64,000 bases of DNA from Planctomycetota bacterium (lineage in GTDB: Bacteria > Planctomycetota > PLA2 > JAEUHO01): positions 1 to 64,000 of the forward strand of contig CBDCWP010000026.1 in assembly GCA_965223505.1 (NCBI GenBank), written 5' to 3'. This document shows, one piece after another, positions 3,141-44,110 of this stretch. Each line of letters opens with the position of its first letter. Position 1 is the first letter of the stretch. The position numbers were made by a program, and so were the translations under genes. The notes under the pieces were generated by a model. The model saw nothing but the letters and a program-made list of their open reading frames with translations. It was not told the origin of the DNA and searched no databases.

Positions 3141-4298
3141 ATGCGTATCCTCGTTCTCATCGGATGCCTCGCCCTTCTGCTCGCCCGTCCGGCCGGCACA
3201 TGCTGCATGGTGCCGATGTCGTTCGCCGGCGACGTCGATCAGTCCGCCCAACGGGTAATCGCGGTTCATCACGACGGGCACCAGGAGCTCATCGCGCGCG
3301 TCGCGCCGTTCTTCCAGGGCACCGACGACACGCCGGCGTACCTGGCGTGGGTCTTGACCGTGCCGTCGAAGCCGACGGGCTACGACGTCGTCGCACCGGA
3401 GGTGTTCAAGGAAGCGGCGGCGCTCGCGGATCGGCTCGAGGCTCTGGCCGCCCGACAGGAGGCCCGGCGCTCGAGGTTCTTCAACCCCGTCCCGAAAGGC
3501 ATGCTCGGCGTCGACAGCATGCAAGTCACGGCCGCGGCCAGGGGCGGGCTCGACGTGTCGGCGCCGGTCGAGGTCGGCCCGTACGAGATCACGGAGGTCA
3601 AGGCGCGCGGCGTCGACGCGCTGGACCAGCTCAACGCGTACCTCGACGCGCGCGGCTTCCCGCAGGAGGACCCGGCGCACATGCGCTGGTTCGTCGAGAA
3701 CGACTTCACGTTCCTGTGCATCTACATCACCCCGCCCGAGGGGCAGGACCGGCTCGGCAAGCAGCTCGAGCTCGACGCACTGCGCGTCGGCTTCGCAGCC
3801 GAGCGCCCCTACTACCCGGGCATGTTCAGCAGCCGCCAGGGCAACTTCTCGTTGGCGCTGACGGTCGTCACGTCGAAGCCGCTCGCGGCATCGGCGCTGA
3901 ACGCGCAGCGCGGCAAGCTCAACGCGCGGTCGAGCGACTACCGCAACCTCTGGACGGTGAAGGCGTTTCCGGGCGCGCTGGGCAAGTCCGTCGCGGACGT
4001 CCCGCCCCTTCACGGCGTCGAGCGCTGGTATGTCAACGCGTTGCACTCCCGGGGCTTCAACCGCAACCGCGACGATGGGACGCCCGAGATCGCGCATTGG
4101 CGCGAAGACGTCTTCTTCGCCTTGGGTGGTGAAGCCGACGAGCCGCCGTCCTGGTACTACGGCGACCGCGACATCGGCGCCGTCGAGCGCGCGTGGCGCG
4201 AACATCGGATCGCGATCGTCATCTGGACCGCTCTGATCGCGGCCTGCGTCACGGCGATCTGGATCGTTCGGCGCAAGCGGCGCCTCGCGCGGGCCTAG
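3141..4298 (+). CDS. DUF2330-like exported protein with C-terminal membrane anchor
   Basis: Start MRILVLIGC at 3141; signal peptide then CC; AWVLTVPSKP and VGPYE segments; C-terminal TM helix plus RRKRR. Confidence 0.7.
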   Translation: MRILVLIGCLALLLARPAGTCCMVPMSFAGDVDQSAQRVIAVHHDGHQELIARVAPFFQGTDDTPAYLAWVLTVPSKPTGYDVVAPEVFKEAAALADRLEALAARQEARRSRFFNPVPKGMLGVDSMQVTAAARGGLDVSAPVEVGPYEITEVKARGVDALDQLNAYLDARGFPQEDPAHMRWFVENDFTFLCIYITPPEGQDRLGKQLELDALRVGFAAERPYYPGMFSSRQGNFSLALTVVTSKPLAASALNAQRGKLNARSSDYRNLWTVKAFPGALGKSVADVPPLHGVERWYVNALHSRGFNRNRDDGTPEIAHWREDVFFALGGEADEPPSWYYGDRDIGAVERAWREHRIAIVIWTALIAACVTAIWIVRRKRRLARA

Positions 4299-5533
4299 CG
4301 AATCCGCGGCGGCGGCAGCCTCCCGGGCTCCGGCGCCACGGGCGCCGGCTCCGGGAGCGGCTCCTCGATCGGCCGGAACGGCGCCGCGCCATTCGTCGCG
4401 GGCGCGGGCGCCAGTGACGCGCCCGGCGGGTGATCGCTCCAGCTGTCGACGTTGCCACCCATGCGCACGCCCAGGTCGTAGAGCCGGCGCATCGTGGCCG
4501 GATCGAACGCGAGCTTGTCCGCTGCTTCCGCCGTGTACTCATTCGGAATGTGCGTCATACGGAACGTGAACCCGCGCATCTGCGCGATCCCCCATGCGTG
4601 CCACAGGCTGCCGATCATGGACTCGGAGATCAGGGTCGCCAGGCCGCGCCGCCAGATGTCCGGCAGGTTCGGTTGAACGCACTCCGTCGTGTTTCCGAAG
4701 GCGGAGTTCGCGATGACGTACACGTCGCCACGCGGCATCGGGTCGGTCAGCGGATCGGCGCCGGGCTGCGCCGCCAATGCTGCATGCACGTCCGGCACGA
4801 ACACCTGATCGCAGATCCCCCCGTCCACGTACATCTCGCCGTGGATGAGCACGGGAGGCAGGATCAGCGGGATGCTCGAAGCCGCCAGGAGGACACGCCG
4901 GTAGAGCTGGTACTCGCCGGCGCGGGCGAGGGCCGTCATGTCCCAGACCCGCATCGCGCCGCAGTCGAGGTCGGTCGTTGCCACGAGCAGGAGGCGCTTC
5001 CCGTCCTCGGAACGCGTCGCAACTCGATCGATGACCTCGTCCGTGACGTACCGCCCCAGCAGACGCCGCAGCTTGTCGGACTTCGAGACCGACTCGACGA
5101 ACGGAATCGAGATCCGCGAGCGTTCGTCGACGATGTCGTCACGTGAGATCGTCGTGAAGCAGTGCTCGATCATTCGATCCGCTTCGGGCGTGTCGACGAA
5201 GACGAACGTACCCAGGAGCGCGCCGGTGCTCACCCCGGTGATGATGTGGAAGTCCGGACGGCCGGTGGCGTCCGTCTCGGCGGACCGGCGCCAGCCATTG
5301 ACGACCCCGGCGGCGAAGGCGCCGTTCTGTCCGCCGCTCGAGAGCGCCAAGATCTGCAGGTCCGCGTCGGGGTTCATGTGCGCGGTGCGCGCGACGGCGG
5401 CGCGCACCTCCGCGTCGCGTGAGGCGACGTGCGCGGGCATGTCGCTCGGGTGCACGCACGTGCGGGTGGTACAAGCGCTTTCGGCGAGCAGGACCACACC
5501 CAGCAAAGCCACGAGGCCCCACCCGCGTCGCAT
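4295..5533 (-). CDS. Patatin-like phospholipase family lipoprotein
   Basis: LSSGGQNGAF, GVSTG nucleophile motif, YVDGG. Confidence 0.9.
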   Translation of the reverse strand: MRRGWGLVALLGVVLLAESACTTRTCVHPSDMPAHVASRDAEVRAAVARTAHMNPDADLQILALSSGGQNGAFAAGVVNGWRRSAETDATGRPDFHIITGVSTGALLGTFVFVDTPEADRMIEHCFTTISRDDIVDERSRISIPFVESVSKSDKLRRLLGRYVTDEVIDRVATRSEDGKRLLLVATTDLDCGAMRVWDMTALARAGEYQLYRRVLLAASSIPLILPPVLIHGEMYVDGGICDQVFVPDVHAALAAQPGADPLTDPMPRGDVYVIANSAFGNTTECVQPNLPDIWRRGLATLISESMIGSLWHAWGIAQMRGFTFRMTHIPNEYTAEAADKLAFDPATMRRLYDLGVRMGGNVDSWSDHPPGASLAPAPATNGAAPFRPIEEPLPEPAPVAPEPGRLPPPRIR

Positions 5534-6324: not shown

Positions 6325-8226
6325 CTATCGCGTGGTGCCGACGACGATCTCGACCCAGGACCGGGCCTTGGCCTGGGTGCCGGCAGCCGGTGACTGACGG
6401 CACACGATGCCGCGCAACGACGGTTCGCGCGGCTCGTAGCTCAGCCGCACGAGGAACCCGGCATCACGCAGCTCCTTCTCGGCGGCCTTGCGTTCGAGCC
6501 CTGCTACATCCGGAATGGGCGTGGTCGTCACGTCCTGCGGCAGGGGTCGGCGCGCGACGACGATCGTGATGCGCGTTCGTTTCGCGACGACCTCCCCGGC
6601 GGAGGGCGACTGCGTGAGCACCTGTCCGTCGGGCGCGTCGTCGGTGAGCTCGAGCTTCGTGCGATAGCGCAGCCCGGCGCGCTTGATCTGGGTCTCGGCC
6701 ATGTCGCGCATGATGCCGATGACGTCCGGAACGATGATCTCCTCCGCGGCCGGCTCGCGCGGACCGGGCGCCGGCGGCGGCGGCGGTTCCGGCTTCGGCT
6801 CGGGCGCCGGCGGCTCGGGCTTCGGCTCGTCGGGGGCGGGCTCCGGCGACGGCGGCGGTTCGGGCTTCGGCTCGTCGGGACCCGGCTCCGGCGGCGGCGG
6901 CTCGGGCTTCGGCTCGTCGGGCGCCGGCTCCGGCGGCGGCGGTTCGGGCTTCGGCTCGTCGGGCGCCGGCTCCGGCGGCGGCGGCTCGGGCTTCGGCTCG
7001 TCGGGCGCCGGCTCCGGCGACGGTGGTTCGGGCTTCGGCTCGTCGGGCGCCGGCTCCGGCGGCGGCGGCTCGGGCTTCGGCTCGTCGGGCGCCGGCTCCG
7101 GCGGCGGCGGTTCGGGCTTCGGCTCGTCGGGCGCCGGCTCCGGCGGCGGCGGTTCGGGCTTCGGCTCGTCGGGAACCGGCTCCGGCGACGGCGGCTCGGG
7201 CATCGGCTCGTCGGGCGCCGGCTCCGGCGGCGGCGGTTCGGGCTTCGGCTCTTCGGGCGCCGGCTCCGGCGGCGGCGGTTCGGGCTTCGGCTCTTCGGGC
7301 GCCGGCTCCGGCGGCGTCGGCTCGGGCTTCGGCTCGTCGGGGCCGGGTTCGTCGGTCGGCGGAATGGGCGGCTCCGCCGGACCAGGCGTCGACCAACGCG
7401 CTTGACCGATGGTCAGCTCGATCGTCGTCCCCAACGCCACCTGATCGCCGGCCTTCGACGACTGCCGCACGACCTTGCCGAAGTCGCGCTCGTCATCCAC
7501 CGGCTCGAACACCAGGTACGCGGCGAGTCCGTCCTCGTTCAGACTTCGCTCCGCAGCCGCCTCGGACTGCCCGACGAGATGCATCATCTCGACGCGCACC
7601 TCGCCGACGAAGACGGCAACTTCATCTTGCTTGGCATGCGGTTCGCCGCCGCGCGGCTTCGTCCGCAAGACCAGGCCGTGCTTGTCGCGATCCTGGACGA
7701 TGTCCGGCCACTCCTTGGCCCGATAGCCGGCTTCCGCCAACCGCTGCTGCGCCTCGTCGAAGCTGAGACCGCGCACGTCCGGGACGTAGTCGCGCTGCAC
7801 GAACTTCGGCCCGAGCCAGATGCCGAGACCGGCCATGCCGAGCAGCAGCAGGAACACCAGTCCGGCCTTCCCGCCGCCTCCACCGCCATCGCCATCGCCG
7901 GTCGCGACCGGCTCCGACGCGACGTCGAGACGCAGTGGATGCTGCGTCGTCTCCTGCTTGCCTTCGTGATCCGTGATGCGCACGTGTACGACCGCGTTGC
8001 CTGGCTGTCCGGTCTCGACGCGAATGGGCACGTGCACCGCCTCGACACCATGCGGCAAGCCGTAGCGCCCGCCCGGACCGACACCCCGCAGGTCCAGCGC
8101 CTGCAGCGGACCCTCGGTCGCCACTTCGACGATGCACTCACCGCGCATCGCAGCCGGAACCTCGACCTTCGCGACGAACAGGGAGCCCTTCGAAGCGGGC
8201 ACACGATCGGGCAGGCTGATTCGCAT
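6325..8226 (-). CDS. Membrane-anchored multi-PASTA-domain protein with long Pro/Glu-rich spacer
   Basis: Start MRISLPDR at 8226; one TM segment; four PASTA-like repeats (VPDVRGLS, MMHLVGQS, VPDVIGIM, IPDVAGLE). Confidence 0.8.
   Translation of the reverse strand: MRISLPDRVPASKGSLFVAKVEVPAAMRGECIVEVATEGPLQALDLRGVGPGGRYGLPHGVEAVHVPIRVETGQPGNAVVHVRITDHEGKQETTQHPLRLDVASEPVATGDGDGGGGGGKAGLVFLLLLGMAGLGIWLGPKFVQRDYVPDVRGLSFDEAQQRLAEAGYRAKEWPDIVQDRDKHGLVLRTKPRGGEPHAKQDEVAVFVGEVRVEMMHLVGQSEAAAERSLNEDGLAAYLVFEPVDDERDFGKVVRQSSKAGDQVALGTTIELTIGQARWSTPGPAEPPIPPTDEPGPDEPKPEPTPPEPAPEEPKPEPPPPEPAPEEPKPEPPPPEPAPDEPMPEPPSPEPVPDEPKPEPPPPEPAPDEPKPEPPPPEPAPDEPKPEPPPPEPAPDEPKPEPPSPEPAPDEPKPEPPPPEPAPDEPKPEPPPPEPAPDEPKPEPPPPEPGPDEPKPEPPPSPEPAPDEPKPEPPAPEPKPEPPPPPAPGPREPAAEEIIVPDVIGIMRDMAETQIKRAGLRYRTKLELTDDAPDGQVLTQSPSAGEVVAKRTRITIVVARRPLPQDVTTTPIPDVAGLERKAAEKELRDAGFLVRLSYEPREPSLRGIVCRQSPAAGTQAKARSWVEIVVGTTR
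6790..7350 (-). repeat. Coding tandem repeat: about 13 copies of a 42-bp unit encoding EPAPDEPKPEPPPP
   Basis: Unit ggctccggcggcggcggctcgggcttcggctcgtcgggcgcc repeated in tandem on the + strand; boundaries approximate. Confidence 0.92.
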
Positions 8227-8327
8227 TCGAGGGTCCGGGGGCGGATTCCGACGGGCCCCCACGATACCGACAGGGGCACCCAGCGTAGATCGACCAACGG
8301 AGCGCGCGCCGTGATCGGTCGGCCCGG

Positions 8328-9275
8328 CTACCGGCGCAGGAACCGGTAGGTGAAGCCGTTCTCGCCCCACTTGAGCATGGCGCGACCGGGCTCGAGGTCG
8401 CTCTCCGTCACCACCGGGCTCTCGAGCGGCTCGCCGTGGCGCTCCGTCACCGCGATCCGCAGCCGACCGCCCCGAACGCTCCAGGTGCCGGACGCCGTCA
8501 GCAGACGCATCGCCCGGTGGCTGCCGCGCAAGGTGATCGCCCCGTCGGCCATCAACACGAGGACGAGGGGCTCGCCGCGGTCGCGCCAATGGGTGAAATC
8601 GATCTCGTGCTCGCGCTCCATCATCTTCAACGCCGTGGCGCGGCCTTCCTCGGTCATCTTCTCGAGATCGTCGGCCTGGGAGGCGACGAGACGGGCCAGC
8701 AGCCCTTCGTCGGCATGTTCGTAGTCGACCCGGTACACACCCGGCACCGCGTCCGAGGGCTGATCGCCCATAGGCTGGTTCCAGCGCTCGCGCAGCGCCG
8801 CTTCGTTCTTCGCGAACCAGGTGTGACAGCGTGCCTGCGCCGCGGGCGCCTCCTCGACGGGACTCGTGTGATCGAAGCCGAAGTCCTCACCGGTGATCGC
8901 CATGAGCGTGTCTGAGGCGGAGTGGCGCACCCAGCGCCGCGCATCGCCCAGCGCTTCGATGAGCGGAAGCAGCACGTCCACCGAACGCAGCTCGGCGAGC
9001 GCGTCGGCGGCGAACGACCGCACCATGTCGCTGCGGCTCTCGCGCATCAGCCGCACCAGCGGCAACGCGGCCGCGCGGATGCGTTCGTCCGAGACGCGCC
9101 GGATGCCTTCGAGCACGACGCTCTCGTCGCGGCTCGCGAGCGCGTCTGCCCACGACGCCGGCGCCTCCGCGACGGCCGGGGGCGGCGTCGGTTCGGGCGC
9201 GGCCGCGTCCTCGGCCTCTCCGCACGCTGAGAGCGACAACGCCATCCCGACGACCAGGCATCGCAGGACGCTCAT
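8328..9275 (-). CDS. HEAT-repeat lipoprotein
   Basis: Start MSVLRCL at 9275; lipobox LSAC; HEAT-like VRSFAADALAEL and LIEALGD..WVR; overlaps the tetR stop by 4 bp. Confidence 0.75.
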   Translation of the reverse strand: MSVLRCLVVGMALSLSACGEAEDAAAPEPTPPPAVAEAPASWADALASRDESVVLEGIRRVSDERIRAAALPLVRLMRESRSDMVRSFAADALAELRSVDVLLPLIEALGDARRWVRHSASDTLMAITGEDFGFDHTSPVEEAPAAQARCHTWFAKNEAALRERWNQPMGDQPSDAVPGVYRVDYEHADEGLLARLVASQADDLEKMTEEGRATALKMMEREHEIDFTHWRDRGEPLVLVLMADGAITLRGSHRAMRLLTASGTWSVRGGRLRIAVTERHGEPLESPVVTESDLEPGRAMLKWGENGFTYRFLRR

Positions 9276-29641: not shown

Positions 29642-30187
29642 CTACTGCGGCTCGAGGAAGACCTGCGTCCACCAGGGGCCGTCGTAGGACCCGCCCGGAC
29701 CGAAGCGCGCGCCGACACCCACCGCCGATCGGTCCGTCGTGAGCAGGTTGAGGTTGTGGCCGGGCGAGTTCGCCCACGCGTCCACGACCTCCGCGGGCGT
29801 GAGCTGCCCGACGGCCACGTTCTCGGAGACCGAGGTGTGCCCGATCTGCGCGGCGGTCAGACGGTCGCCGGGCGTCTCGCCGTTCGGCCCGAAGTGCGTG
29901 AAGTTGCCGATGCCCTGTTGGTACATCGAGTGCTCGTACGCCACCTGGGCCGCTTCTTCGTGCCACGTCAGCGGCGGCAGGCCGTGGGCGGCCCGGTAGT
30001 TGTTGGTGTGCACCCAGACGTCGCGGGCGAAGGCGTACTCGTCGGCGGTCGGCGTGCTGGTCGGATTGATCGATCCGCCGCCGGGCGCGCTGTTGTCGAA
30101 GCGGCCGACCAGGTCGTCGGCGAAGTCACCGGCACCGCAGGCGGTGAAGAGCAGCGCGAGGACGAGGACGGACGGGCTGCGTGACAT
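29642..30187 (-). CDS. CAP/SCP-domain lipoprotein
   Basis: Lipobox FTAC; TNNYRAAHGLPPL, HS.Y, ENVAVG, WANSPGHNLNLL, WTQVF. Confidence 0.9.
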   Translation of the reverse strand: MSRSPSVLVLALLFTACGAGDFADDLVGRFDNSAPGGGSINPTSTPTADEYAFARDVWVHTNNYRAAHGLPPLTWHEEAAQVAYEHSMYQQGIGNFTHFGPNGETPGDRLTAAQIGHTSVSENVAVGQLTPAEVVDAWANSPGHNLNLLTTDRSAVGVGARFGPGGSYDGPWWTQVFLEPQ

Positions 30188-30315
30188 CGAGAGGGATCTC
30201 CACTCCCTGTATCGACGCGCCCACCGCCCCCGCTGTAGGAAAACGTCGGTTCCCAGCGTACCCGGCGGCGGCCCTCGCGCGAGGACAAGGCAGTCGACCT
30301 GCCGGAGTGCCCCCG

Positions 30316-30978
30316 ATGCCCGCACCGCTCACGTTCCTTGTCACGCTTCTTCTAGCCCTCGTCGCCGCCGCAGGCCCCGCGCTGGCGGAGTCCATCGAGA
30401 CGTTCTCGCTCGACGGCGCTCTCGGCGACGGCGACAGCCAGTGCCTGAGCCAAGACACCCTCACCGTGACGCGAACGGGGCTCTCGGTGGGCGACGTCAC
30501 GTTCGACGTGGTGCTGACCGTCGTCGGCTCGAACGATCTCAACCAGGTGAGCTCGGGGCTGGGCGTCGACGGCGGCTCGAACCCCATCAACGACGGCGAG
30601 CACCTGACGTTCTCGCTCGAGATCAAGAACGAGAAAGGCGGAACGGTCACCTTCGACGGGTTCTCGGAGGTCGACTTCACCTTCTTCGGCGCGGACGGGG
30701 AGCAGGCCGTCTTCAGCAAGGACGACAGCCTGACCTCCACGAGCGACAACTTCCTGATCGCGGAAGGAAGCGACGACGACCCCGCGGATCTCTCGGACAC
30801 GTCGCCACTGGCGTTCACGCTCTTCGGCCACGACGACGGGGGCACCGTCTCCTTCCGCGTGGACTCGATCGACGCCGCGTTCAGCGCGGCCTCGCCCGTA
30901 CCCGAGCCGGCGTCGGCCTTGCTGCTGGGGACCGGCGTCCTCGTCGTCGCCCTGCGGCGACGACGCTGCGCGTCCTGA
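30316..30978 (+). CDS. PEP-CTERM sorting-domain surface protein
   Basis: Signal peptide; acidic Ser/Thr/Gly-rich body; C-terminal VPEPASALLLGTGVLVVALRRRR. Confidence 0.9.
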   Translation: MPAPLTFLVTLLLALVAAAGPALAESIETFSLDGALGDGDSQCLSQDTLTVTRTGLSVGDVTFDVVLTVVGSNDLNQVSSGLGVDGGSNPINDGEHLTFSLEIKNEKGGTVTFDGFSEVDFTFFGADGEQAVFSKDDSLTSTSDNFLIAEGSDDDPADLSDTSPLAFTLFGHDDGGTVSFRVDSIDAAFSAASPVPEPASALLLGTGVLVVALRRRRCAS

Positions 30979-31006
30979 TCACGTCGCGCGGGTAGACTCC
31001 CGCCCC

Positions 31007-31849
31007 GTGAGCACCGCCGTCGAGAACGCAGATCTGGCCGCCTATCTCGCGTACCTCCGTGCGCACGGGGCCCAGTTCGACGTGTCACCGGCGTTGCGCC
31101 GCGACCGCGATCACACGGAGCGCACGTTGGCTCCGTGCAAGGACAAGTGGGCCGACATCGACTGGGACGGGCTGCCGCACATTCGCGAGCGCCGGGACCC
31201 GGCGGCCGGGTTCGTCGCGGACCACGCGACGGAGATGATCGCGCGCTGCTACACCAACCCCGCGGTCTTCGAGCCCGGGTGCCGGGTGTGGGACGTCGGC
31301 TGCGGCACCGGCGTCCTCGGCGTGCTGGCGCTCGTCATGGGCGCGAAGGAGGCCCTGGGAACGGACATCTCGCTCGACGCGCTCGAGCTCGCCGATGCAA
31401 CCGCCGGCGCCGCGGGCGTCGCGTTCCCGATGTACGTCGGCTCGGTCCTCGACGCCGTGCCGGTGGAATGCGCCGCGGATCTCGTGACAGCGAACCTGCC
31501 GCACAAACCGTGTCCGCAAGACCGCATGCTGCAAGTCTCGCAGAACGGCGGGCCGGAAGGCGACGAGCCGCACGCGCTGCTCGCCGCGCAAGCGTCGGAG
31601 CGTCTCTCCCCGGGCGCCCGCGTGTTGTTCTTCCTGCACTCGCTCCCCCACCCGCGCCTCCTGGGTCACTACCAGGCGTCGTTCGACCTGACGCTGCTCG
31701 CATGGAAGTACCGGTTTCTCGGCGATGGCGAATACGGCGCGCTGGAAGAGGTCTTCGCGAAGCGCTGCAGCGAGGGGCGCAGCTTCATCGTCGAGCGCGA
31801 CGGCCGGCGCGCATTGATCGCCTGCGCCTGGATGGCGAGGCGCAAGTGA
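31007..31849 (+). CDS. Class I SAM-dependent methyltransferase, HemK/PrmC-like
   Basis: VWDVGCGTGVLG, GTDIS, ANLPH (NPPY-like motif IV), GGPEG. Confidence 0.85.
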   Translation: MSTAVENADLAAYLAYLRAHGAQFDVSPALRRDRDHTERTLAPCKDKWADIDWDGLPHIRERRDPAAGFVADHATEMIARCYTNPAVFEPGCRVWDVGCGTGVLGVLALVMGAKEALGTDISLDALELADATAGAAGVAFPMYVGSVLDAVPVECAADLVTANLPHKPCPQDRMLQVSQNGGPEGDEPHALLAAQASERLSPGARVLFFLHSLPHPRLLGHYQASFDLTLLAWKYRFLGDGEYGALEEVFAKRCSEGRSFIVERDGRRALIACAWMARRK

Positions 31850-32652
31850 ATGCGCGGCTGATCGTCAACGCCGACGACGGTGGGCTCGCTGCCTCGACCG
31901 ACGCGGCGATCCTGCGCTGCGCGCGGGAGGGCATCGTCGGCTGCGCGTCCGTCGTCGTCAGCGGCACGAGCGCGGCGACGTTCGTCCGCGACGCCGCTTC
32001 CATCGGCATCGACCTCGGCCTGCATCTGAACCTCACCGAGGGCCGCTCGCTCACCGGCGGGCCGGCGCTCCTGACGGACGACGACGGCTCGTTCAAGGGA
32101 CCGAAACAAGCCGTCTGGGCGTGGGGCGCGACGACCGACACGCCGCCGCCGGGACTCGTCGAGGAGATCCGCGCCCAGTGGCAGCGGCTGTGCGAGCTCG
32201 GCGCCCGTCCGACCCACGTGAACGGCCACAATCACGTCCACGTGCTGCCGCCCGTGTTGCACGCGTTGCGCGAGGCGCTGGAAGACGAGACGGTCTACGT
32301 GCGCATGCCGCACGAGGCCCACGCCGGTCACGTCCCGCCCTTTCCGCTCGAAGCGCTGTGCGCCCGGGCGCGCGATCGGTTGCCGGGGCGCTGGCGCGCG
32401 ACGGACGGGTTCGTCGGATACGGCTTCTGCCACGCGCCGTCCGTCGAGACGTTGCTCGACAGCCTGCCGGAGCCGCGCGGCACCACGGAGCTGATGGTGC
32501 ATCCCGGCGGACGCAGCGGCTCGCCGTTCGGCGAAGCACCGGAGCGGGAGGCCGAGGTCGAGGCGCTCTGTGACGGCAGCCTCCTGCCGCGCCTCGAGGC
32601 GCGGGGCTATGCACCGGCCACGTTCCGGGACCTGCTTCGGGAGCACGCATGA
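31846..32652 (+). CDS. YdjC/ChbG/HpnK-family carbohydrate deacetylase
   Basis: GTG at 31846 overlapping the upstream TGA; LIVNADDGG, GLHLNLTEG, HVNGHNHVH, ELMVHPG. Confidence 0.9.
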   Translation: MNARLIVNADDGGLAASTDAAILRCAREGIVGCASVVVSGTSAATFVRDAASIGIDLGLHLNLTEGRSLTGGPALLTDDDGSFKGPKQAVWAWGATTDTPPPGLVEEIRAQWQRLCELGARPTHVNGHNHVHVLPPVLHALREALEDETVYVRMPHEAHAGHVPPFPLEALCARARDRLPGRWRATDGFVGYGFCHAPSVETLLDSLPEPRGTTELMVHPGGRSGSPFGEAPEREAEVEALCDGSLLPRLEARGYAPATFRDLLREHA

Positions 32653-33638
32653 CGATCCGCGTCGCGATCGTCACGAACGCGCTCGGGCCGCCGACGCGCG
32701 GCAACGGCACCACGGTGCAGCGCTGGCTCGGCTGGCTGCCGGACGTGGACGTCGATGCGTTCGTCGTCGATCCGAGCGGCGACCTCACCTTCGACGGCCC
32801 CGCGCCCGACGTCGTTCACGGCTATCACGCCCTGCACGGCGGAGAGGCCGCGATCCGCCTCGCGGACCGGGTCGACCGTCCGCTGATGGTCAGCATCGGC
32901 GGTACGGACCTGTTGTCGTTGCGCACGGGCGAGGGCGAGGTCGAACGCTGCCGCCGGGTCTTCGAGCGCGCGGACCTGGTGACCGGCGCCGTCGCCTCGT
33001 TCGGCGAGGTTTTGGGCGAAGTCCCGTACGCGGTCGTCCCGCGCGGGGTGCACGTGCCCGACACGCCTCCCTCGAAGCCCGACGGCCGGCTGAGCGTGCT
33101 CCTGCCGGCGGGCCTGCGCCCGGTCAAGGACCCGCTGCTCGCCATCGAGATGGCCGACGTCCTCATCGAACGCGGCGTGGAAATGCACCTGCTCATCCTC
33201 GGCCCAACGCTGGACGACGACTACGCGTCGCGCGTTCTCGAAGCGGCGGCATCGCGCGAACACGTGACGCTGGGCGAGGTCGAACGCGACCAGATGCCGG
33301 CCGCCTACGCGGATGCGCACGTCGTGTGGAACACGTCCTTCCACGAGGGAGGCTCGAACGCCGTGCTCGAAGCACTGGCCCATGGCTGCGAGGTGTACGT
33401 GCGCAACGCGCCGGGCAACTACGACGTCCTGCACGACCTGGAGGCGCCGGGGCGCCTGTTCGGGCCGGGCGACTGGGAGGACCTGGAGTCGTTCCATCGC
33501 TGGCTGTTGCAGGAAAGCGACGACCAGCGCGCGGAGCGCGTGGAGCTCACCCGTCGCTGGTTGCTCGCGAACCACAGCTCGGCGTCCGAGGTGCGCGCCT
33601 TGCGCGCCGCATACGACCGGCTACGCGCGGTGACGTAG
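32649..33638 (+). CDS. GT-B (GT4-like) glycosyltransferase, SenB/GLT1D1-like
   Basis: GNGTTVQRW, HGYHA, GGTD, PAGLRPVKDP, NTSFHEGGSNAVLEAL; ATGA coupling to the deacetylase. Confidence 0.82.
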   Translation: MTIRVAIVTNALGPPTRGNGTTVQRWLGWLPDVDVDAFVVDPSGDLTFDGPAPDVVHGYHALHGGEAAIRLADRVDRPLMVSIGGTDLLSLRTGEGEVERCRRVFERADLVTGAVASFGEVLGEVPYAVVPRGVHVPDTPPSKPDGRLSVLLPAGLRPVKDPLLAIEMADVLIERGVEMHLLILGPTLDDDYASRVLEAAASREHVTLGEVERDQMPAAYADAHVVWNTSFHEGGSNAVLEALAHGCEVYVRNAPGNYDVLHDLEAPGRLFGPGDWEDLESFHRWLLQESDDQRAERVELTRRWLLANHSSASEVRALRAAYDRLRAVT

Positions 33639-33660
33639 ACAACGTGGACGGTACGTAGAC

Positions 33661-34437
33661 CTAGTCGAACAGCGCGACGACGGGAACGTGATCGGATGGC
33701 TTGGAGTCCTTGCGCTCCTTGCGCTCGTCGCGATCGATCTCGACGCCGACGCACCGGTCCCACATGGGCGTCGTACCGAGCACGAGATCGATACGCAGGC
33801 CCTTGTTGCGCTGGAATCCGCCCGCCCGGTAGTCCCACCACGTGTACAGCCCGGCTTCGTCGTGGTGCTTGCGCAACAGGTCCCCGAATCCCCAGTCGAA
33901 GAAGGCCCGCAGGGTCGCGTGCTCGAGGGGGTGGAAGTGGACCTTGCCCTTCCAGAGCTCGGGATCGTGCACGTCACGTTCGTCGGGCGCGATGTTGAAG
34001 TCGCCGAGCAACACGACGGGATCGGACGGCTCGTGCGCCGCGCGGATCGAGGCGAGCAACCGATTCAGCCACCCGATCTTGTAGGGAAAGAACTCGCTCT
34101 CGACGCGCTTGCCGTTCGGAACGTACACGCCGACGACGCGCACGCCGGCGAACGTGCCGGCAATCACGCGCGCTTCGGCGTCCTCCTCGTCGTCCGGGAT
34201 GCCGCGAACGACGTCTTCCGCGGGCGCGCGAGAGATGAACGCGACCCCGTTGTACGTCTTCTGGCCGAAGGTCTCGACGTGGTAGCCGAGCGACTCGAAC
34301 GCGTCGCGCGGGAAGGCGTCGTCGACGACCTTGATCTCCTGCAGGCAGAGCACATCGGGCTCGTTCTGCTCGATCCAGGCGATCGCGCGCTCCAGGCGCG
34401 TCCGAATTGAGTTGACGTTCCACGTGACGATCTTCAT
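33661..34437 (-). CDS. xthA: Exodeoxyribonuclease III
   Basis: MKIVTWNVNSIR, LQEIK, YNGVA, YVPNG, GDFNIAP, YTWWDYR, GLRID, SDHVPV. Confidence 0.95.
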   Translation of the reverse strand: MKIVTWNVNSIRTRLERAIAWIEQNEPDVLCLQEIKVVDDAFPRDAFESLGYHVETFGQKTYNGVAFISRAPAEDVVRGIPDDEEDAEARVIAGTFAGVRVVGVYVPNGKRVESEFFPYKIGWLNRLLASIRAAHEPSDPVVLLGDFNIAPDERDVHDPELWKGKVHFHPLEHATLRAFFDWGFGDLLRKHHDEAGLYTWWDYRAGGFQRNKGLRIDLVLGTTPMWDRCVGVEIDRDERKERKDSKPSDHVPVVALFD

Positions 34438-39971: not shown

Positions 39972-42452
39972 CTAGCAGCACGCCTCGCCCGGCACGCAAC
40001 CGTTCTCCAACGTCGGGAACGGTTGCGTCGGATCCGTCACCAGGAACGACGACTGGTACGGCGCGACGCGCAGCTTCGCCGCCGTGTCCGTGCAGACCTC
40101 CACCGGTACGCCGCGCGGGAAGCGATGGCCCTCCTCGTCCACGACGGCCTCGAACGGCCCCAGGAACGTCGCCGTCTCGCCGATGTAGACGCACCCGGCC
40201 TTCTTCTCGTACTTCCACGCGCGGACCGTGACCGTCAGGTAGGTGACGTCTTCCACGCTGCGCCACGGCGCCCTGCGCAGCACCTCCAGACCGTGGAAGC
40301 CGGCCCGCCGCAGCATCGACAGGAAGGCGTCTTCCGAGAGCGCGCCGGAGAGGCACTCGCCCCACAACCTGCCGTCGACCTTCTGGTGCGGCGGCACCTC
40401 CCGGTCGGCGACGATGTCCGAGATGACCGCGCGGCCGTTGTCCTTCAAGACGCGCCAGATGCCCGCGAGCACGCGCTCCTTGTCCGGTGACAGGTTGATC
40501 ACGCAGTTGCTGGTCACGCAGTCGACGCTGGCCGCCTCGACGGGGATCTCCTCGAGGAATCCCTTGCGGAACTCCGCCACGTCGAAGCCGAGACGTTCGG
40601 CGACCAGCGGTTTGTTCTCCGCCGCGACCGCGAGCATGCGATCCGTCATGTCCACCCCGATCGCGCGTCCAGTCTCGCCGACCTTCTTCGCCGCGATGAA
40701 CACGTCGATGCCGGCGCCCGAGCCGAGATCGAGGTAGGTCTCGCCCGCTTGGAGTCCGCAGCGCGCGACCGGACTCCCGCATCCGTAGAAGCGGTCCAGG
40801 ACGGCCTGCGGAATGTGCGACGTGTCCTCCGGCTCGTAGCTCGTCGGACAGCACAGCTCCTCCTGCGGTTCCTCCGCGGCGTCGCCGTAGAACTCGCGCA
40901 CGACCTTGCGGGCGGCGTCGAGATCGTAGGAGAGCACGCATTCGCTGTGGCGAAGGCGCACGCCGGGCTCCGGCGCCGCGTCTACCTCCTTGTCGCCGCA
41001 CAGAACGGCGCCCTGCCCCATGGCGCGCTCGATGCGGGCCGCGTCGAACCCGGCTCGGTTGCGATGCGCCTTGCGCGCGTGCACCAACCGGTCGAACGCG
41101 TCGGCGATCATGCCCTTGTGCAGCTCGCAGTACGGGTCGTGCGCGAGGAACGACTTCTTGCCGAGCTGCGCGGGGCCGGCGTGCCAGGCGTGCTCGAGAT
41201 CGCCGCCGCCGCACAGGAACCGCAGCGAGCAGTCGCGGCACACGGCCTTCTCGGTGAGCGACAGACGGCGGATGTCCTCAAGCACGGTGCTCGTGCGCCA
41301 GATCGTCTCGAGCGACTGCTCGTTGAGGTCGCCGGCCCGAAGGTCCGACTCGCCGGCGAGCGCCGCACTCGGGTACACGCCCCCGTCGGCGTAGATGCAG
41401 AGACTCTCCCAGCCCATGTTGCTCAGGTCGTGGCGCGTCCCGGCGCGCGCGGTCAGCCGTTGCTCGACGGAGACGTCGTTGTCGACCGTGACGTCGAGCT
41501 CGTCGGCGACAGCCCGCACCTTGCGAACGACGTCCAGCACTCGTTCCGGCGCCAGCTCGAGGTCGTCGCCGGCCCGGCCGCGGTGGTGCAGCCAGAGCAG
41601 GTGGTGGTTCTTGACCCCCATGCCGGCGAGCAGGCGCGTGGTGTCGGGAAGATCCTCCGCATTCGACGCCATGATCACGGTCGTGACCGTGACCCGCAGG
41701 CCCGCATCGACCGCCTTGCGAATCCCGGCGTTGATCTTCTCGAACGATCCTTCGCCCCGGCACGGGTCGTTGAGCGCCGGCGTGCTGCCGTCGAGCGAGA
41801 TCTGCACGCGGAAGCGGTCGGTCGGGAAGTCCGAGAGCGTGCCGAGACGGTCGTCGGTGAACAGCATCCCGTTGGTCAGGACGCATACCTCGGTGTCGTC
41901 GTGACCGAGGATCCATGCGATGAGGCCGACCATGTCCTTGCGCAGGAAGGGCTCGCCGCCCGTGATGAACACGCGCTTCACGCCCAGATCGAGGCCCTGC
42001 CGGATCCACCCGCGCAATACGTCGGGCGCGACGCCTTTGTCGCCGTCCGGCCCGGACGACACGAGACAGTGCGCGCACGTCAGGTTGCACGAGTTGTTCG
42101 AGTGCACCCACAGCTCGCGCAGGTTCGCAAGCCGCAGACGCCCGGCTCGGCCCTCGTAGGCGCGCGCGGCGGACGGGGCGTGGCGCAGGAAGCCCTCGCG
42201 CAGGGCGTCGAGCGCGAAGCTGTGGACGTGCATCCACGCCTTGCCTGGGTCGTAGCCGAACGAGGAGCCGTACGACTGCGTGACATCGTCGAGGTTGCGG
42301 CGGCCGTCGAAGAGCGAAGCCAGTCGCTCACCCCGCTCGTCCGTCCCGATCCAGTGCGGTCCCTCGGGATCGATCAGGACCCGCGTGCCGTTCCGGCTCA
42401 GGCGGGCCATGGGGGGCGCGTGAAGCACGCTGGAGCCGTCGATCGTCGCCAT
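39972..42452 (-). CDS. Fusion: PqqD/RRE-like domain, radical SAM, SPASM-like domain, ArsM/AS3MT-type methyltransferase
   Basis: CNLTCAHC and ITGGEP; CRDCSLRFLCGGG...DPYC; ELCCP, FYGCGSP, DLGSGAGID, SNCVINL, WGECLSGA; ends EACC; GAGGAGG RBS. Confidence 0.9.
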   Translation of the reverse strand: MATIDGSSVLHAPPMARLSRNGTRVLIDPEGPHWIGTDERGERLASLFDGRRNLDDVTQSYGSSFGYDPGKAWMHVHSFALDALREGFLRHAPSAARAYEGRAGRLRLANLRELWVHSNNSCNLTCAHCLVSSGPDGDKGVAPDVLRGWIRQGLDLGVKRVFITGGEPFLRKDMVGLIAWILGHDDTEVCVLTNGMLFTDDRLGTLSDFPTDRFRVQISLDGSTPALNDPCRGEGSFEKINAGIRKAVDAGLRVTVTTVIMASNAEDLPDTTRLLAGMGVKNHHLLWLHHRGRAGDDLELAPERVLDVVRKVRAVADELDVTVDNDVSVEQRLTARAGTRHDLSNMGWESLCIYADGGVYPSAALAGESDLRAGDLNEQSLETIWRTSTVLEDIRRLSLTEKAVCRDCSLRFLCGGGDLEHAWHAGPAQLGKKSFLAHDPYCELHKGMIADAFDRLVHARKAHRNRAGFDAARIERAMGQGAVLCGDKEVDAAPEPGVRLRHSECVLSYDLDAARKVVREFYGDAAEEPQEELCCPTSYEPEDTSHIPQAVLDRFYGCGSPVARCGLQAGETYLDLGSGAGIDVFIAAKKVGETGRAIGVDMTDRMLAVAAENKPLVAERLGFDVAEFRKGFLEEIPVEAASVDCVTSNCVINLSPDKERVLAGIWRVLKDNGRAVISDIVADREVPPHQKVDGRLWGECLSGALSEDAFLSMLRRAGFHGLEVLRRAPWRSVEDVTYLTVTVRAWKYEKKAGCVYIGETATFLGPFEAVVDEEGHRFPRGVPVEVCTDTAAKLRVAPYQSSFLVTDPTQPFPTLENGCVPGEACC

Positions 42453-42640
42453 GGGGCCTCCTCCTCGACGCGGAAAGGACGTACGTTCCGGTCGTCCGCA
42501 TTGCAGCGGGGTGCGGATCCTACCGCACCCCCGACCACGGGTGCGCGGGGGCGGGGGACGGGGATCCCGGAAGCGCGGGGGGCATCGAGATCGGTCGACG
42601 GGGGGTTGAAACCGGGGTACACCCGAGCCGGAGGCCCCCC

Positions 42641-44110
42641 ATGCGAACGGTCCGACTCGTGCTGATTTTCGCCCTGCTCCTGGTTTCGACAGCGGCCGCG
42701 CACGCCGAGGAGCAACCGGCGACGCGACGCATCAAGATCCCGGCGGCCTCGCTCACCGTCGACGTGCCCGCCGACTGGACCGTCGACCAGTACGACGACG
42801 CGCCGCTCAAGCTGTCCAAGGGCAAGGCGGCGGTCTGGTTTCGAACCGTGGCGGCGGCGCCGGGCGGCTCGAACGACCTCCAGCGCCTGGCAGACCGCGT
42901 CGGCGCCGACTTGGCGAACCCGCCCAAGGTCGCTCGCTGGAAGGTGAAGGGCGCGTTCGGCGCGCGTGCGCTCTGGTACGAGGAGGAAGGACAAACGCGC
43001 TTCGCCGGCATCATCAACGTCACGGACAAGTCCGCGATTCACGTCGAGGCGTACATCAGCGAGCCGGAGCAAGACACCCGCAAGGCGCTGGAGGCGATCT
43101 TCGGGACCGTGAACACGACCGCGTTCGCGCACCCCGAGCGCCATGTGAGCTGGAACGATGGCTGGACGCTCGAGATTCCGTCCGACTGGACGCGGCAGCG
43201 GGACGAAGCCCACGCGAACCGGGTGCGCCTGCGCTCGCCCGGCCGATCCGGTGTCACCCTGCGCATCGATCGCGTCACCGAGAAGGCGGCCGCGGAGACG
43301 GCCGCGCAGCGCGTGCGCCGCATGATCGACGCGACGGCGGAGACGATCCGCGCGCGGGGCCTGAGCTTCTCGATCGAGGGCGAGGGCGGGGACATGGCCA
43401 TCGGCTCGACCGACTTGAAGCACGGCGATGCCGCGCCGTCGTTCCGCGGCCGCGCACGCATCTCACGGGAGGGCATGGCGCAGCCGATCTTCATGCACGT
43501 CGAGGCGCTCCTCGTCGGCCGCATCGAGCTGTTGCTCGCGTGCACGGGCGGCGCGAAGGATGTGCTCGAGGCGGCGCGCGCGACGGCGGCCACGCTGCAG
43601 GAAGGCACGCATCCGGGGCCCTATGAGATTCGGGTGCCGGCCCGGCCCGACCGCTTCGAGAGCAAGAAGGCGCCTCCGGTTCGCTTCGACCTGCCCGAGG
43701 GCTGGACGCTGGGCACGCCGCGAAGCCCCATGCGGCTGGCGGAGATCCAGGCGCCGGGCGGGCTGCACGGCTCCGTGTACTACTTCGGCGAGGGCCGGGG
43801 CGGCGGCCTCGAGCCCAACATCGAGCGCTGGAAGGGCCAGTGGACCGAGGCCGGCGAATGGAAGCGCGAGACGCTCGAGCTGGACGACGACATGCGGGCG
43901 ACGCTCTTGTCGGGTTTCGGCCGCTACGTCGCGCCGCTGCGGCCGGGGTTGCCGGACAAGCACGACAAGCCCGACCACGGGTTGCTGGCGGCGTATGTCG
44001 AGGTTCCCAAGGGCCCGCTCATGTTCAAGATCGTCGGGCCGAAGAAGGACGTCGAGAAGGCCGCGACCGCGTTTCGCAATTGGATTCGCAGCTTCAAGCC
44101 TGCGGACTGA
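42641..44110 (+). CDS. Exported hypothetical protein with repeated PsbP-like segments
   Basis: GGAGG RBS, signal peptide; three P..W starts (VPADW, IPSDW, LPEGW); YFGEGRGGG..NIERW. Confidence 0.75.
   Translation: MRTVRLVLIFALLLVSTAAAHAEEQPATRRIKIPAASLTVDVPADWTVDQYDDAPLKLSKGKAAVWFRTVAAAPGGSNDLQRLADRVGADLANPPKVARWKVKGAFGARALWYEEEGQTRFAGIINVTDKSAIHVEAYISEPEQDTRKALEAIFGTVNTTAFAHPERHVSWNDGWTLEIPSDWTRQRDEAHANRVRLRSPGRSGVTLRIDRVTEKAAAETAAQRVRRMIDATAETIRARGLSFSIEGEGGDMAIGSTDLKHGDAAPSFRGRARISREGMAQPIFMHVEALLVGRIELLLACTGGAKDVLEAARATAATLQEGTHPGPYEIRVPARPDRFESKKAPPVRFDLPEGWTLGTPRSPMRLAEIQAPGGLHGSVYYFGEGRGGGLEPNIERWKGQWTEAGEWKRETLELDDDMRATLLSGFGRYVAPLRPGLPDKHDKPDHGLLAAYVEVPKGPLMFKIVGPKKDVEKAATAFRNWIRSFKPAD

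What the first reader, a model, noticed from the sequence alone, without database searches (positions are those of the whole stretch)
31007..33638. Methyltransferase + deacetylase + SenB-like glycosyltransferase operon: candidate seleno/thio-sugar pathway
Seen: three translationally coupled genes (GTGA and ATGA overlaps) with a TAGACT -10 box 8 nt before the first start, closed by the convergent xthA. The glycosyltransferase has G-N19-G-T-T22-V-Q-R-W, H60, GGT-D87, LRPV-K160-DP and E233-GG. Established: these motifs characterise the SenB/GLT1D1 group; SenB makes Se-glycosides from selenophosphate and a UDP-sugar in selenoneine biosynthesis. As I recall them (must be verified), the key SenB residues are N20/T23/H58/D86/K158/E231, and these positions match within 1-2 residues. 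Seen: no senA (EgtB-like) or selD in the window; the partners are a YdjC deacetylase and a methyltransferase with an NLPH (NPPY-like) motif. Inference: a Se- or S-GlcNAc is made, de-N-acetylated and Se- or N-methylated, giving a product other than selenoneine. Similar clusters may already be reported in other lineages, so novelty needs a literature check.
Basis: partly seen in the sequence, partly recalled or inferred. Interest (0 to 1): 0.85.

Follow-up and report, generated by a model that had tools for sequence, protein, structure and literature searches.

The report
SenB-related sugar operon, selenium link unproven
Three tightly coupled genes, conserved in uncultured Planctomycetota, probably build a de-acetylated and N-methylated amino-sugar conjugate; the sugar-transferring enzyme is a cousin of the selenium enzyme SenB, but nothing found here ties it to selenium.

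Summary
Three genes overlap by 4 nt at each junction: methyltransferase 31007-31849, YdjC deacetylase 31846-32652, glycosyltransferase (GT) 32649-33638. A convergent xth closes them.

The GT's closest solved relative is SenB, by sequence (E 3e-8) and by fold (TM 0.82). It keeps SenB's N20, T23, H58, D86, R155, K158 and E231 equivalents.

These residues do not diagnose selenium chemistry. They are invariant or nearly so (90% or more) across a wider superfamily that includes the uncharacterised "GPMC system family 4 GT".
- The GT scores 165 bits on the GPMC model and 77 on SenB, below both cut-offs (400, 300).
- It sits in its own well-supported clade.
- It shares 8 of 30 SenB-diagnostic columns against 20 of 33 GPMC-like ones.
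- No selD or SenA/EgtB homologue lies in the 64 kb window or beside the GT in 14 related loci. Both known SenB pathways carry a senBC cassette.

The trio recurs with the same overlaps in 6 of 14 related loci. The methyltransferase's nearest relatives are almost all N-methyltransferases, including amino-sugar ones.

Best reading: UDP-HexNAc is transferred to a small polar acceptor, de-N-acetylated, then N-methylated. The acceptor is unknown. It is a new variant of a known logic (BshA/BshB-like), of moderate interest.

The parts
30993..30998 (+). TAGACT hexamer 8 nt upstream of the MT start; possible -10 element, unverified
   Evidence: Seen. The promoter scan of 30700-34000 found 0 sites. Only 28 nt separate it from the stop of the upstream PEP-CTERM gene at 30978.
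31007..31849 (+). Class I SAM methyltransferase (280 aa) of a trio-specific family. Motif I is G98-C-G-T-G102 and motif IV-like is A-N163-L-P-H-K-P168. It is predicted to be an N-methyltransferase.
   Evidence: Pfam PrmA, MTS and Methyltransf_25 hits. NCBIfam PrmA and PrmC hits lie far below their cut-offs. There are 58 close homologues, then a sharp drop. The AF2 model has pLDDT 96.3.
31846..32652 (+). YdjC-family carbohydrate de-N-acetylase (268 aa). Its GTG start overlaps the MT stop (GTGA).
   Evidence: Pfam YdjC 147.9 bits against a cut-off of 29.7. ChbG 7vi8 matches at E 1.2e-16, with the N-A-D-D and H-x-x-x-H-x-H stretches aligned. The NCBIfam ChbG and HpnK models score below cut-off.
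32649..33638 (+). Compact GT-B glycosyltransferase (329 aa) of the SenB/GPMC-GT4 superfamily, in its own Planctomycetota clade. Its ATG overlaps the YdjC stop (ATGA).
33661..34434 (-). Convergent exodeoxyribonuclease III-like gene (xth). It is the downstream boundary and not part of the pathway.
   Evidence: Pfam Exo_endo_phos 1.2e-36. The same convergent arrangement occurs in L006, L008 and L010.

Best explanation
This is a three-gene, translationally coupled operon of uncultured Planctomycetota. It most likely makes a small amino-sugar conjugate in three steps.
1. The GT is a compact GT-B enzyme of the SenB/GPMC-GT4 superfamily. It transfers an N-acetylhexosamine from a UDP-sugar onto a small, polar, probably anionic acceptor. 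This step is inferred.
2. The YdjC enzyme removes the N-acetyl group. This is inferred from family and from adjacency.
3. The PrmA/PrmC-like methyltransferase methylates the freed amine. This is inferred from its relatives and its N-x-P-H motif.

The logic is that of BshA/BshB and MshA/MshB (GT4, then deacetylase), with a YdjC-type deacetylase and a dedicated N-methyltransferase. The acceptor is not known. Selenophosphate is one candidate and is not the favoured one.
For: Operon and conservation.
- The junctions have 4-nt start/stop overlaps in the window.
- The MT-YdjC junction has the same 4-nt overlap in L003, L004, L005, L006 and L008, and an overlap of about 7 nt in L002. YdjC-GT overlaps of 4-16 nt occur in L002, L003, L005, L006, L007 and L008.
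- MT-YdjC-GT is found in 6 of 14 related loci (L002-L006, L008), and YdjC-GT in 1 more (L007), while the flanking genes differ.
- The MT family (58 close homologues) and the GT clade (about 79) are of similar size, and their named members are mostly Planctomycetota.

GT.
- The AF2 model has pLDDT 94.8.
- The best folds are SenB (TM 0.82/0.83), then BshA and MshA (TMq 0.77-0.81). All of these act on small acceptors.
- It is about 50 residues shorter than BshA or MshA.
- The V159 and E233 equivalents of the SenB residues that contact the 2-acetamido/C2' group are kept.

YdjC. The nearest solved relative is the chitooligosaccharide deacetylase 7vi8, E 1.2e-16.

MT.
- Sequence neighbours in the PDB are PrmA, PrmC, an apramycin N-methyltransferase, PRMTs, METTL5 and RsmC.
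- Fold neighbours are PrmA, the gentamicin methyltransferase of 5u0n, the carbamoyl N-MT Asc-Orf2, KMT9, PrmC and AerE.
- The invariant A-N-L-P-H-K-P aligns with PrmA's A-N-[IL].
Against: - No substrate or product is shown, and the acceptor is unknown.
- The GT stands without YdjC or MT within about 8 kb in L001, L009, L011, L012 and L013. The partners are therefore not obligatorily linked.
- MT fold matches are weak (TM 0.4-0.6), and one neighbour (MmtN) is an S-methyltransferase.
- MT fusions to a receiver domain exist (P0142-P0144). They fit a regulated or protein-directed methyltransferase equally well.
- The nearest solved, fold and language-model neighbours of the GT are all SenB. A selenium or sulfur acceptor therefore stays open.
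Confidence: 0.5

Rival explanations
1. The GT is a Se- (or S-) glycosyltransferase that takes selenophosphate (or thiophosphate) from a SelD encoded elsewhere. The 1-seleno-GlcNAc is de-N-acetylated and methylated, giving a selenosugar end product other than selenoneine.
For: - SenB is the top hit by PDB sequence (E 3.3e-8), by Foldseek (TM 0.82/0.83) and by ESM-Atlas features (0.99).
- The N20, T23, H58, T85, R155, K158 and E231 equivalents are all kept.
- The window shares W26 and the full L-R-P-V-K-D-P-L string with SenB rather than with core GPMC members.
- SenB and the window's clade branch near each other, and their sisterhood is unresolved.
Against: - The kept residues are superfamily-wide.
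- TIGR04348 scores 77.2 bits against a cut-off of 300, while NF038229 scores 165.5.
- The GT lies outside the SenB clade, which has 100 support and a long stem of 1.24.
- It shares 8 of 30 SenB-diagnostic columns against 20 of 33 GPMC-like ones.
- The pocket residues R61 and T83 are replaced by H63 and G84.
- No selD or NHISS gene was found among the 52 window ORFs scanned, or among 73 ORFs around the GT in 12 of the 14 loci. The sen and ovs clusters carry senBC.
- The MT's relatives are mostly N-methyltransferases.
- SenC made no thiophosphate from sulfide in vitro, so a thiophosphate donor has no known source.
Confidence: 0.12
2. The GT and YdjC are the first two steps of a low-molecular-weight thiol or similar cofactor pathway of the bacillithiol/mycothiol type (GlcNAc-acid or GlcNAc-inositol-phosphate, then GlcN-X). 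The ligase is encoded elsewhere, and the MT modifies a later intermediate.
For: - BshA and MshA are the next-best folds after SenB.
- GT-then-deacetylase is the logic of those pathways (established knowledge).
- DinB/DUF1572 genes lie upstream in L001, L002 and L007. That DinB-fold proteins are often thiol-dependent is recalled.
Against: - No BshA or MshA model appears for the window GT at E<=0.01.
- No BshC/MshC-like ligase was seen in the window or loci ORFs scanned.
- The deacetylase is YdjC, not the LmbE type.
- The DinB genes are divergent and present in only 3 of 14 loci.
Confidence: 0.12
3. The methyltransferase is a protein or RNA N-methyltransferase (PrmA/PrmC-like) whose target is not the sugar. 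The operon couples it to a GT-YdjC pair that acts on some glycoconjugate, or the coupling is only transcriptional.
For: - PrmA is the best Pfam, PDB and fold match.
- NCBI names some family members 'L11 methyltransferase'.
- Receiver-domain fusions exist.
- YdjC-GT occurs without the MT in L007.
Against: - PrmA and PrmC equivalog scores are far below cut-off: 25.6 vs 183 and 32.3 vs 199.
- The MT HMM hit was strong only where the GT-YdjC pair is present, in 6 loci plus the window.
- The 4-nt MT/YdjC overlap is conserved in 5 of 6 loci.
- The family drops sharply to E 6e-7 outside itself.
Confidence: 0.15

Closest known systems
SenB, selenosugar synthase (NCBIfam TIGR04348; PDB 8FBX, 8JJN, 8JJQ, 8JJT, 8RZ3, 8K5U)
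   Same: It is a compact GT-B of about 320-330 aa and the best PDB match by sequence and fold. The G-N, T, H, G-T-D, L-R-P-V-K-D-P and E-G-G motifs are shared.
   Different: - 24-25% identity, and 77 bits against a cut-off of 300.
- A separate clade.
- R61>H63, T83>G84, and EGGAHV>EGGSNA.
- No adjacent selD/senC or SenA/OvsA.
- Its partners are YdjC and an N-MT-like enzyme instead.
GPMC system family 4 glycosyltransferase (NCBIfam NF038229)
   Same: It is the best-scoring curated model (165.5 bits) and matches end to end, 4-324 on profile 1-335 of 338. The window has the GPMC-like residue in 20 of 33 diagnostic columns, including H-A-x-H-G-G.
   Different: - The score is below the cut-off of 400, and true members score 441-447.
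- The window's clade is separate, with 100 support for clades A+B.
- The system's function is not described in any paper I could search, and its other components were not examined.
BshA/BshB and MshA/MshB (GT4 plus deacetylase steps of bacillithiol and mycothiol synthesis)
   Same: The pathway logic is UDP-GlcNAc onto a small acceptor, then de-N-acetylation. BshA and MshA are the next-best folds (TMq 0.77-0.81).
   Different: - 15-18% identity.
- Those enzymes are about 50 residues longer.
- Their deacetylases are of the LmbE type (established knowledge), not YdjC.
- No Cys ligase is present here, and a methyltransferase is present instead.
ChbG and HpnK (characterised YdjC-family de-N-acetylases)
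   Same: The family is the same: Pfam 147.9 bits, and 7vi8 at E 1.2e-16. Like HpnK, it sits in a biosynthetic rather than catabolic context next to a GT (HpnK's context is recalled).
   Different: It scores below both equivalog cut-offs: 98 vs 227 and 85.5 vs 232.6.
PrmA and PrmC; amino-sugar N-methyltransferases of aminoglycoside pathways (5u0n; apramycin N-MT 23lq)
   Same: It has the class I fold, and its motif IV-like N-x-P-H aligns with PrmA's A-N-[IL]. These are its nearest sequence and fold neighbours.
   Different: - TM is only 0.4-0.6.
- It has its own 85-residue N-terminal part and the invariant D-H-A-T and H-S-L-P motifs.
- It scores far below the PrmA and PrmC equivalog cut-offs.

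Membership tests
SenB (TIGR04348) | Score at or above the curated NCBIfam cut-off (300 bits) | tested here: not met
   77.2 bits. Clade relatives score 70-110 bits, while true SenB members score 305-372.
SenB (TIGR04348) | Placement inside the SenB clade in a family tree | tested here: not met
   The SenB clade (10 rows, support 100, stem 1.24) excludes the window. The window sits in a 25-row clade (96) within a 52-row clade (100). The tree is effectively unrooted.
SenB (TIGR04348) | Sugar-donor triad N20/T23/E231 and K158 | tested here: met
   N19, T22, E233 and K160 are present. The feature does not discriminate: it is conserved in GPMC-type relatives too, and K and E occur in an ordinary GT4.
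SenB (TIGR04348) | Selenophosphate pocket N20, H58, R61, T83, T85, R155 (PMC10891094) | tested here: inconclusive
   4 of 6 are kept (N19, H60, T86, R157). R61>H63 and T83>G84.
SenB (TIGR04348) | Genomic link to selD/senC (senBC cassette) and to an NHISS gene (SenA/OvsA) | tested here: not met
   None was found among the 52 window ORFs scanned or among 73 ORFs around the GT in 12 of the 14 loci. A selD elsewhere in the genome is not testable here.
SenB (TIGR04348) | Formation of a Se-glycoside from selenophosphate and a UDP-sugar | not testable with these tools
   This needs a biochemical assay.
GPMC system family 4 GT (NF038229) | Score at or above the curated cut-off (400 bits) | tested here: not met
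   165.5 bits. Of the sequences scored, only P0081 and P0083 pass, at 447 and 441 bits.
GPMC system family 4 GT (NF038229) | Presence of the system's other genes nearby | not tested
   I do not know the system's components. No other 'GPMC' model matched the MT or YdjC or the other window ORFs scanned against NCBIfam.
GT4-type GT-B glycosyltransferase | Glycos_transf_1 domain, E-x7-E motif and two-Rossmann GT-B fold | tested here: met
   PF00534 scores 50.1 bits against a cut-off of 26.4. E233...E241 are invariant. The AF2 model has pLDDT 94.8 and all top folds are GT-B. That E-x7-E marks GT4 is established knowledge.
YdjC (PF04794) | Pfam gathering score and the catalytic Asp/His stretches | tested here: met
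   147.9 bits against 29.7. N-A-D-D and H-x-N-G-H-x-H-V-H align with ChbG 7vi8.
ChbG and HpnK equivalogs | NCBIfam cut-offs (227 and 232.6 bits) | tested here: not met
   98.4 and 85.5 bits.
PrmA and PrmC | NCBIfam equivalog cut-offs (TIGR00406 183; TIGR03534 199) | tested here: not met
   25.6 and 32.3 bits. Only the Pfam PrmA domain-level score passes (37.3 vs 22).
BshA and MshA | NCBIfam TIGR03999 and TIGR03449 | tested here: not met
   Neither model is listed for the window GT at E<=0.01. The similarity is of fold only.
   No GLT1D1 sequence was fetched. No paper holds both GLT1D1 and selenosugar.

The most novel reading that the evidence does not exclude
The Planctomycetota clade (and perhaps the wider SenB/GPMC superfamily) uses selenophosphate from an unlinked SelD. 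The trio would then make a free, de-N-acetylated and methylated 1-seleno-hexosamine. That would be a selenosugar made as an end product rather than as a Se donor for selenoneine or ovoselenol. Formally it would resemble the methylated and deacetylated selenosugars excreted by mammals (structures recalled from memory), whose biosynthetic enzymes I believe are unknown.
Probability: 0.1. Interest if true: 0.85.

Novelty: new variant of a known kind. Interest (0 to 1): 0.45.

Why it matters
SenB is the only characterised enzyme of its superfamily. In this sample its catalytic layout is shared by two further groups. One is the large GPMC-like group: about 96 of the 131 full-length representatives scanned score 240-397 bits on the GPMC model, out of 2073 representatives with E<=1e-3 overall. 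The other is a well-supported 52-row Planctomycetota-rich clade. Neither has a known substrate.

The trio gives this clade a pathway context (deacetylase plus N-methyltransferase-like enzyme). That makes its chemistry directly testable with three soluble proteins.
- If the acceptor proves to be an ordinary oxyanion or hydroxy acid, the result marks where selenium chemistry arose within the superfamily.
- If it proves to be selenophosphate, it would be a third selenometabolite pathway.

Either way, the finding warns against reading "SenB residues" as a selenium signature.

Tried and rejected
- Promoter and terminator scan of 30700-34000: 0 sites of either kind.
- tRNA scan of the window and Rfam scan at gathering score: 0 hits each, so no tRNA-Sec or SECIS-like lead.
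- Search for longer fused forms of the GT (577-2000 aa): none found. The tool itself calls this weak evidence.
- P0107 looked like a GT+YdjC fusion. It carries only the first 46 of 266 YdjC profile positions, so I treat it as a deletion or gene-call artefact. At most it shows adjacency.
- P0104 and P0108 were meant as tree outgroups but proved to be superfamily members. The only true outgroup, the L014 GT4, is a long row (2.99) misplaced inside clade B. I therefore draw no conclusion about the root or the direction of change.
- ESM Atlas for the MT gave only generic MTS/PrmA clusters.
- Literature: no paper holds GLT1D1 with selenosugar. 'GPMC system' is in no paper, and TIGR04348/'SenB-like' appear in only three SenB papers. 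No listed paper describes a YdjC + GT + methyltransferase cluster in Planctomycetes (top 15 of 57 seen as listing only). No further SenB-type genome-mining paper since 2023 turned up beyond the ovoselenol preprint.
- My GC3-based gene caller mis-called some genes (for example the strand opposite xth, and parts of the loci). Neighbour tables are therefore incomplete.
Paper supplements, such as Supplementary Fig. 12 of PMC10891094 on SenB-like conservation, were not opened.
Full report
**1. What is in the sequence**

The window (68.8% G+C) carries three same-strand ORFs at the reported place.
- A 280-aa methyltransferase (MT), 31007-31849, with a GTG start.
- A 268-aa YdjC protein, 31846-32652. 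Its GTG lies inside GTGA with the MT stop.
- A 329-aa glycosyltransferase (GT), 32649-33638. Its ATG lies inside ATGA with the YdjC stop.

A convergent Exo_endo_phos (xth) gene ends 22 nt after the GT stop. The hexamer TAGACT sits 8 nt before the MT start. The consensus scan found no promoter-like or terminator-like site in 30700-34000. Only 28 nt separate the MT from the upstream PEP-CTERM gene.

**2. Identities**

- The MT matches Pfam PrmA, MTS and Methyltransf_25 weakly. YdjC matches PF04794 at 147.9 bits. The GT matches Glycos_transf_1.
- In NCBIfam the GT's best model is NF038229, "GPMC system family 4 glycosyltransferase": 165.5 bits against a cut-off of 400, matched end to end. The second is TIGR04348 (SenB): 77.2 bits against a cut-off of 300.
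- In the PDB the only sequence matches better than E 1e-3 are SenB entries, at E about 3-5e-8.
- An AlphaFold model built on 75 family members has pLDDT 94.8. It superposes best on SenB (8jjn, TM 0.82/0.83, 24-25% identity), followed closely by BshA (TMq 0.77-0.81) and MshA (0.80).
- By language-model features, the nearest large clusters are named SenB (0.99). This is a lead, not a test.

**3. Are the "SenB residues" diagnostic?**

Passages of PMC10891094 confirm the roles. N20/T23/E231 set sugar-donor preference. K158 initiates Se-P cleavage and also contacts the UDP beta-phosphate. N20, H58, R61, T83, T85 and R155 line the docked selenophosphate pocket.

The window GT has N19, T22, E233, K160, H60, T86 and R157. 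It has H63 for R61 and G84 for T83.

I aligned 24 sequences that span true SenB (P0099 and P0100, above cut-off), true GPMC GTs (P0081 and P0083, above cut-off) and the window's clade.
- G18, T22, R25, G85, D87, P158, K160, E233 and E241 are invariant.
- N19, H60, T86 and R157 are at least 90% conserved.
- K160 and the E233...E241 pair (the GT4 E-x7-E motif, established knowledge) are also present in an ordinary GT4 taken from L014 (one outgroup only).

It marks the superfamily, not selenium chemistry.

In columns that separate the groups, the window has the SenB residue in 8 of 30 and the GPMC-like residue in 20 of 33. In SenB's favour, it shares W26 and the full L-R-P-V-K-D-P-L string with SenB rather than with core GPMC members.

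**4. Phylogeny**

A full scan of 1.84 billion representatives gave 2073 relatives at E<=1e-3 and 34 at E<=1e-30.

Of the 131 full-length representatives among the best 150:
- 3 are SenB-like (260-307 bits on TIGR04348);
- about 96 are GPMC-like (240-397 bits, none reaching 400);
- the rest, including the 24 nearest to the window, reach neither model at E<=1e-70.

An 83-row IQ-TREE (quick search, SH-aLRT support only) gives the following.
- The window falls in a 25-row clade (support 96).
- Its sister is a 27-row clade (97), and the two together have support 100.
- SenB forms a separate 10-row clade (100) on a long stem (1.24).
- GPMC-like sequences form a grade around both.

Whether SenB and the window's clade are sisters is unresolved. 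The tree is effectively unrooted, because two intended outgroups proved to be family members and the true one is a misplaced long branch. The GT is therefore a member of neither named family. It is a third branch of their superfamily.

**5. Conservation of the neighbourhood**

tblastn and an MT-family HMM run on six-frame ORFs show four situations.
- MT-YdjC-GT in 6 loci (L002-L006, L008). L006 is cut by its contig end.
- YdjC-GT in L007.
- The GT alone within about 8 kb in L001, L009, L011, L012, L013 and L014.
- L010 is cut at the GT.

In the six trio loci, the 4-nt MT/YdjC overlap recurs in 5 and YdjC/GT overlaps of 4-16 nt recur in 5. L007's YdjC/GT pair also overlaps.

Flanking genes differ from locus to locus.
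- PhzF and DinB/DUF1572 upstream in some loci.
- MetH convergent in three.
- xth convergent in three, plus the window.
- etfBA, a HEAT protein and a UDP-GlcNAc 2-epimerase downstream in L009; etfBA and the HEAT protein also in L011 and L012.

The trio, not its surroundings, is the conserved unit.

The MT family has 58 close homologues (34-80% identity). The named ones are mostly Planctomycetota. Beyond them the scores fall abruptly to E 6e-7.

**6. Selenium link**

No selD, SenA/EgtB-type gene or other selenium gene was found in any of these sets.
- The 17 window ORFs scanned with Pfam.
- The 32 window ORFs scanned with NCBIfam.
- The 73 ORFs around the GT in 12 of the 14 loci, scanned with Pfam.

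The window has no tRNA and no Rfam hit.

By contrast, TIGR04348 was discovered because it overlaps selD. 827 of 2353 family members had egtB and selD within 5 kb (preprint 10.1101/2022.04.13.486033, passages). The ovoselenol cluster again carries a senBC cassette (PMC11030361, passages). A selD elsewhere in these genomes could not be checked.

**7. The partners**

*YdjC.* Its nearest solved relative is the chitooligosaccharide deacetylase 7vi8 (E 1.2e-16), with the Asp and His stretches aligned. It scores below the ChbG and HpnK equivalog cut-offs.

*MT.*
- PDB sequence neighbours are PrmA (5e-7), PrmC, an apramycin N-methyltransferase (4.9e-5), PRMTs, METTL5 and RsmC.
- The model (pLDDT 96.3) finds PrmA, the gentamicin methyltransferase 5u0n, a carbamoyl N-methyltransferase, KMT9, PrmC and AerE. 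TM is only 0.4-0.6. One S-methyltransferase, MmtN, is also listed.
- The family's invariant A-N-L-P-H-K-P aligns with PrmA's A-N-[IL]. It fits the (D/N/S)-x-P-(Y/F/W/H) motif of amino-group methyltransferases; that motif rule is recalled.

This favours N-methylation of the amine freed by YdjC over Se-methylation.

*Fusions.* Members fused to a C-terminal receiver domain (P0142-P0144) show that in some lineages the enzyme is under phospho-relay control. They also keep a protein-directed role open.

**8. Best explanation and rivals**

- *Best reading (0.5).* A HexNAc is transferred to a small polar acceptor, de-N-acetylated and then N-methylated. This is the BshA/BshB or MshA/MshB logic with different accessory enzymes and an unknown acceptor.
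- *A thiol-cofactor-type pathway (0.12).*
- *An MT with an unrelated protein or RNA target (0.15).*

All pathway steps are inferred; none is shown.

**9. Novelty**

I found no paper describing this clade, this trio or the GPMC system (listings and passages only, no supplements). It is a new variant of a known kind: an uncharacterised branch of the SenB superfamily with a pathway context that makes it testable.

It is of moderate interest as it stands. It would be of high interest only if selenium is shown.

Noticed in passing
window 39975-42731 (-): A 919-aa fusion of a radical SAM/SPASM domain (about residues 205-535) with an ArsM-like arsenite methyltransferase domain (about 605-920). NCBIfam arsenite MT scores 223.8 bits against a cut-off of 263, and arsenosugar ArsM 161 bits. 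It could be a fused arsenosugar/organoarsenical-type enzyme. It lies 6 kb from the trio and is separated from it by housekeeping genes.
   Followed up: no
window 30181-30978 (+): A PEP-CTERM-tailed secreted protein lies directly upstream of the MT, with a 28-nt gap. The syntenic relative L008 lacks it, and there the divergent CAP gene abuts the MT.
   Followed up: partly
proteins P0142, P0143, P0144 (homologues of the window MT): The MT family occurs fused to a C-terminal response-regulator receiver domain (429-448 aa; one cluster has 23 member sequences).
   Followed up: partly
L009 9096-14219; L011 9105-14031; L012 9052-13845: Where the GT stands alone, it is followed in all three loci by etfB, etfA and a HEAT-repeat protein. 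In L009 a UDP-GlcNAc 2-epimerase (Pfam Epimerase_2) also follows. The equivalent ORFs in L011 and L012 were not scanned.
   Followed up: partly
L012 8001-8946: The GT homologue matches in two tblastn segments (query residues 1-121 and 153-322) with a gap between them. This could be a frameshift, an indel or a pseudogene.
   Followed up: no
L001 4809-6192; L002 3611-4895; L003 5664-6449; L007 4291-4917: DinB/DUF1572 genes (L001, L002, L007) and PhzF-family genes (L001, L002, L003) recur just upstream of the GT or trio in these loci. This may be synteny or a functional hint.
   Followed up: no
window 6328-8589 (-) and 6394-8349 (+): Two long, mutually overlapping ORFs on opposite strands both show high GC3. 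The minus-strand ORF has PASTA-kinase-like hits (131 bits), and the plus-strand ORF has none.
   Followed up: no
window 4298-5533 (-): A 412-aa protein with a weak match to the CBASS cGAMP-activated phospholipase model (37.7 bits against a cut-off of 200).
   Followed up: no
protein P0022: A source names this protein 'GPMC system family 4 glycosyltransferase', although it scores only 193 bits on NF038229 (cut-off 400) and falls in the window's clade. Public names for this clade are inconsistent.
   Followed up: yes
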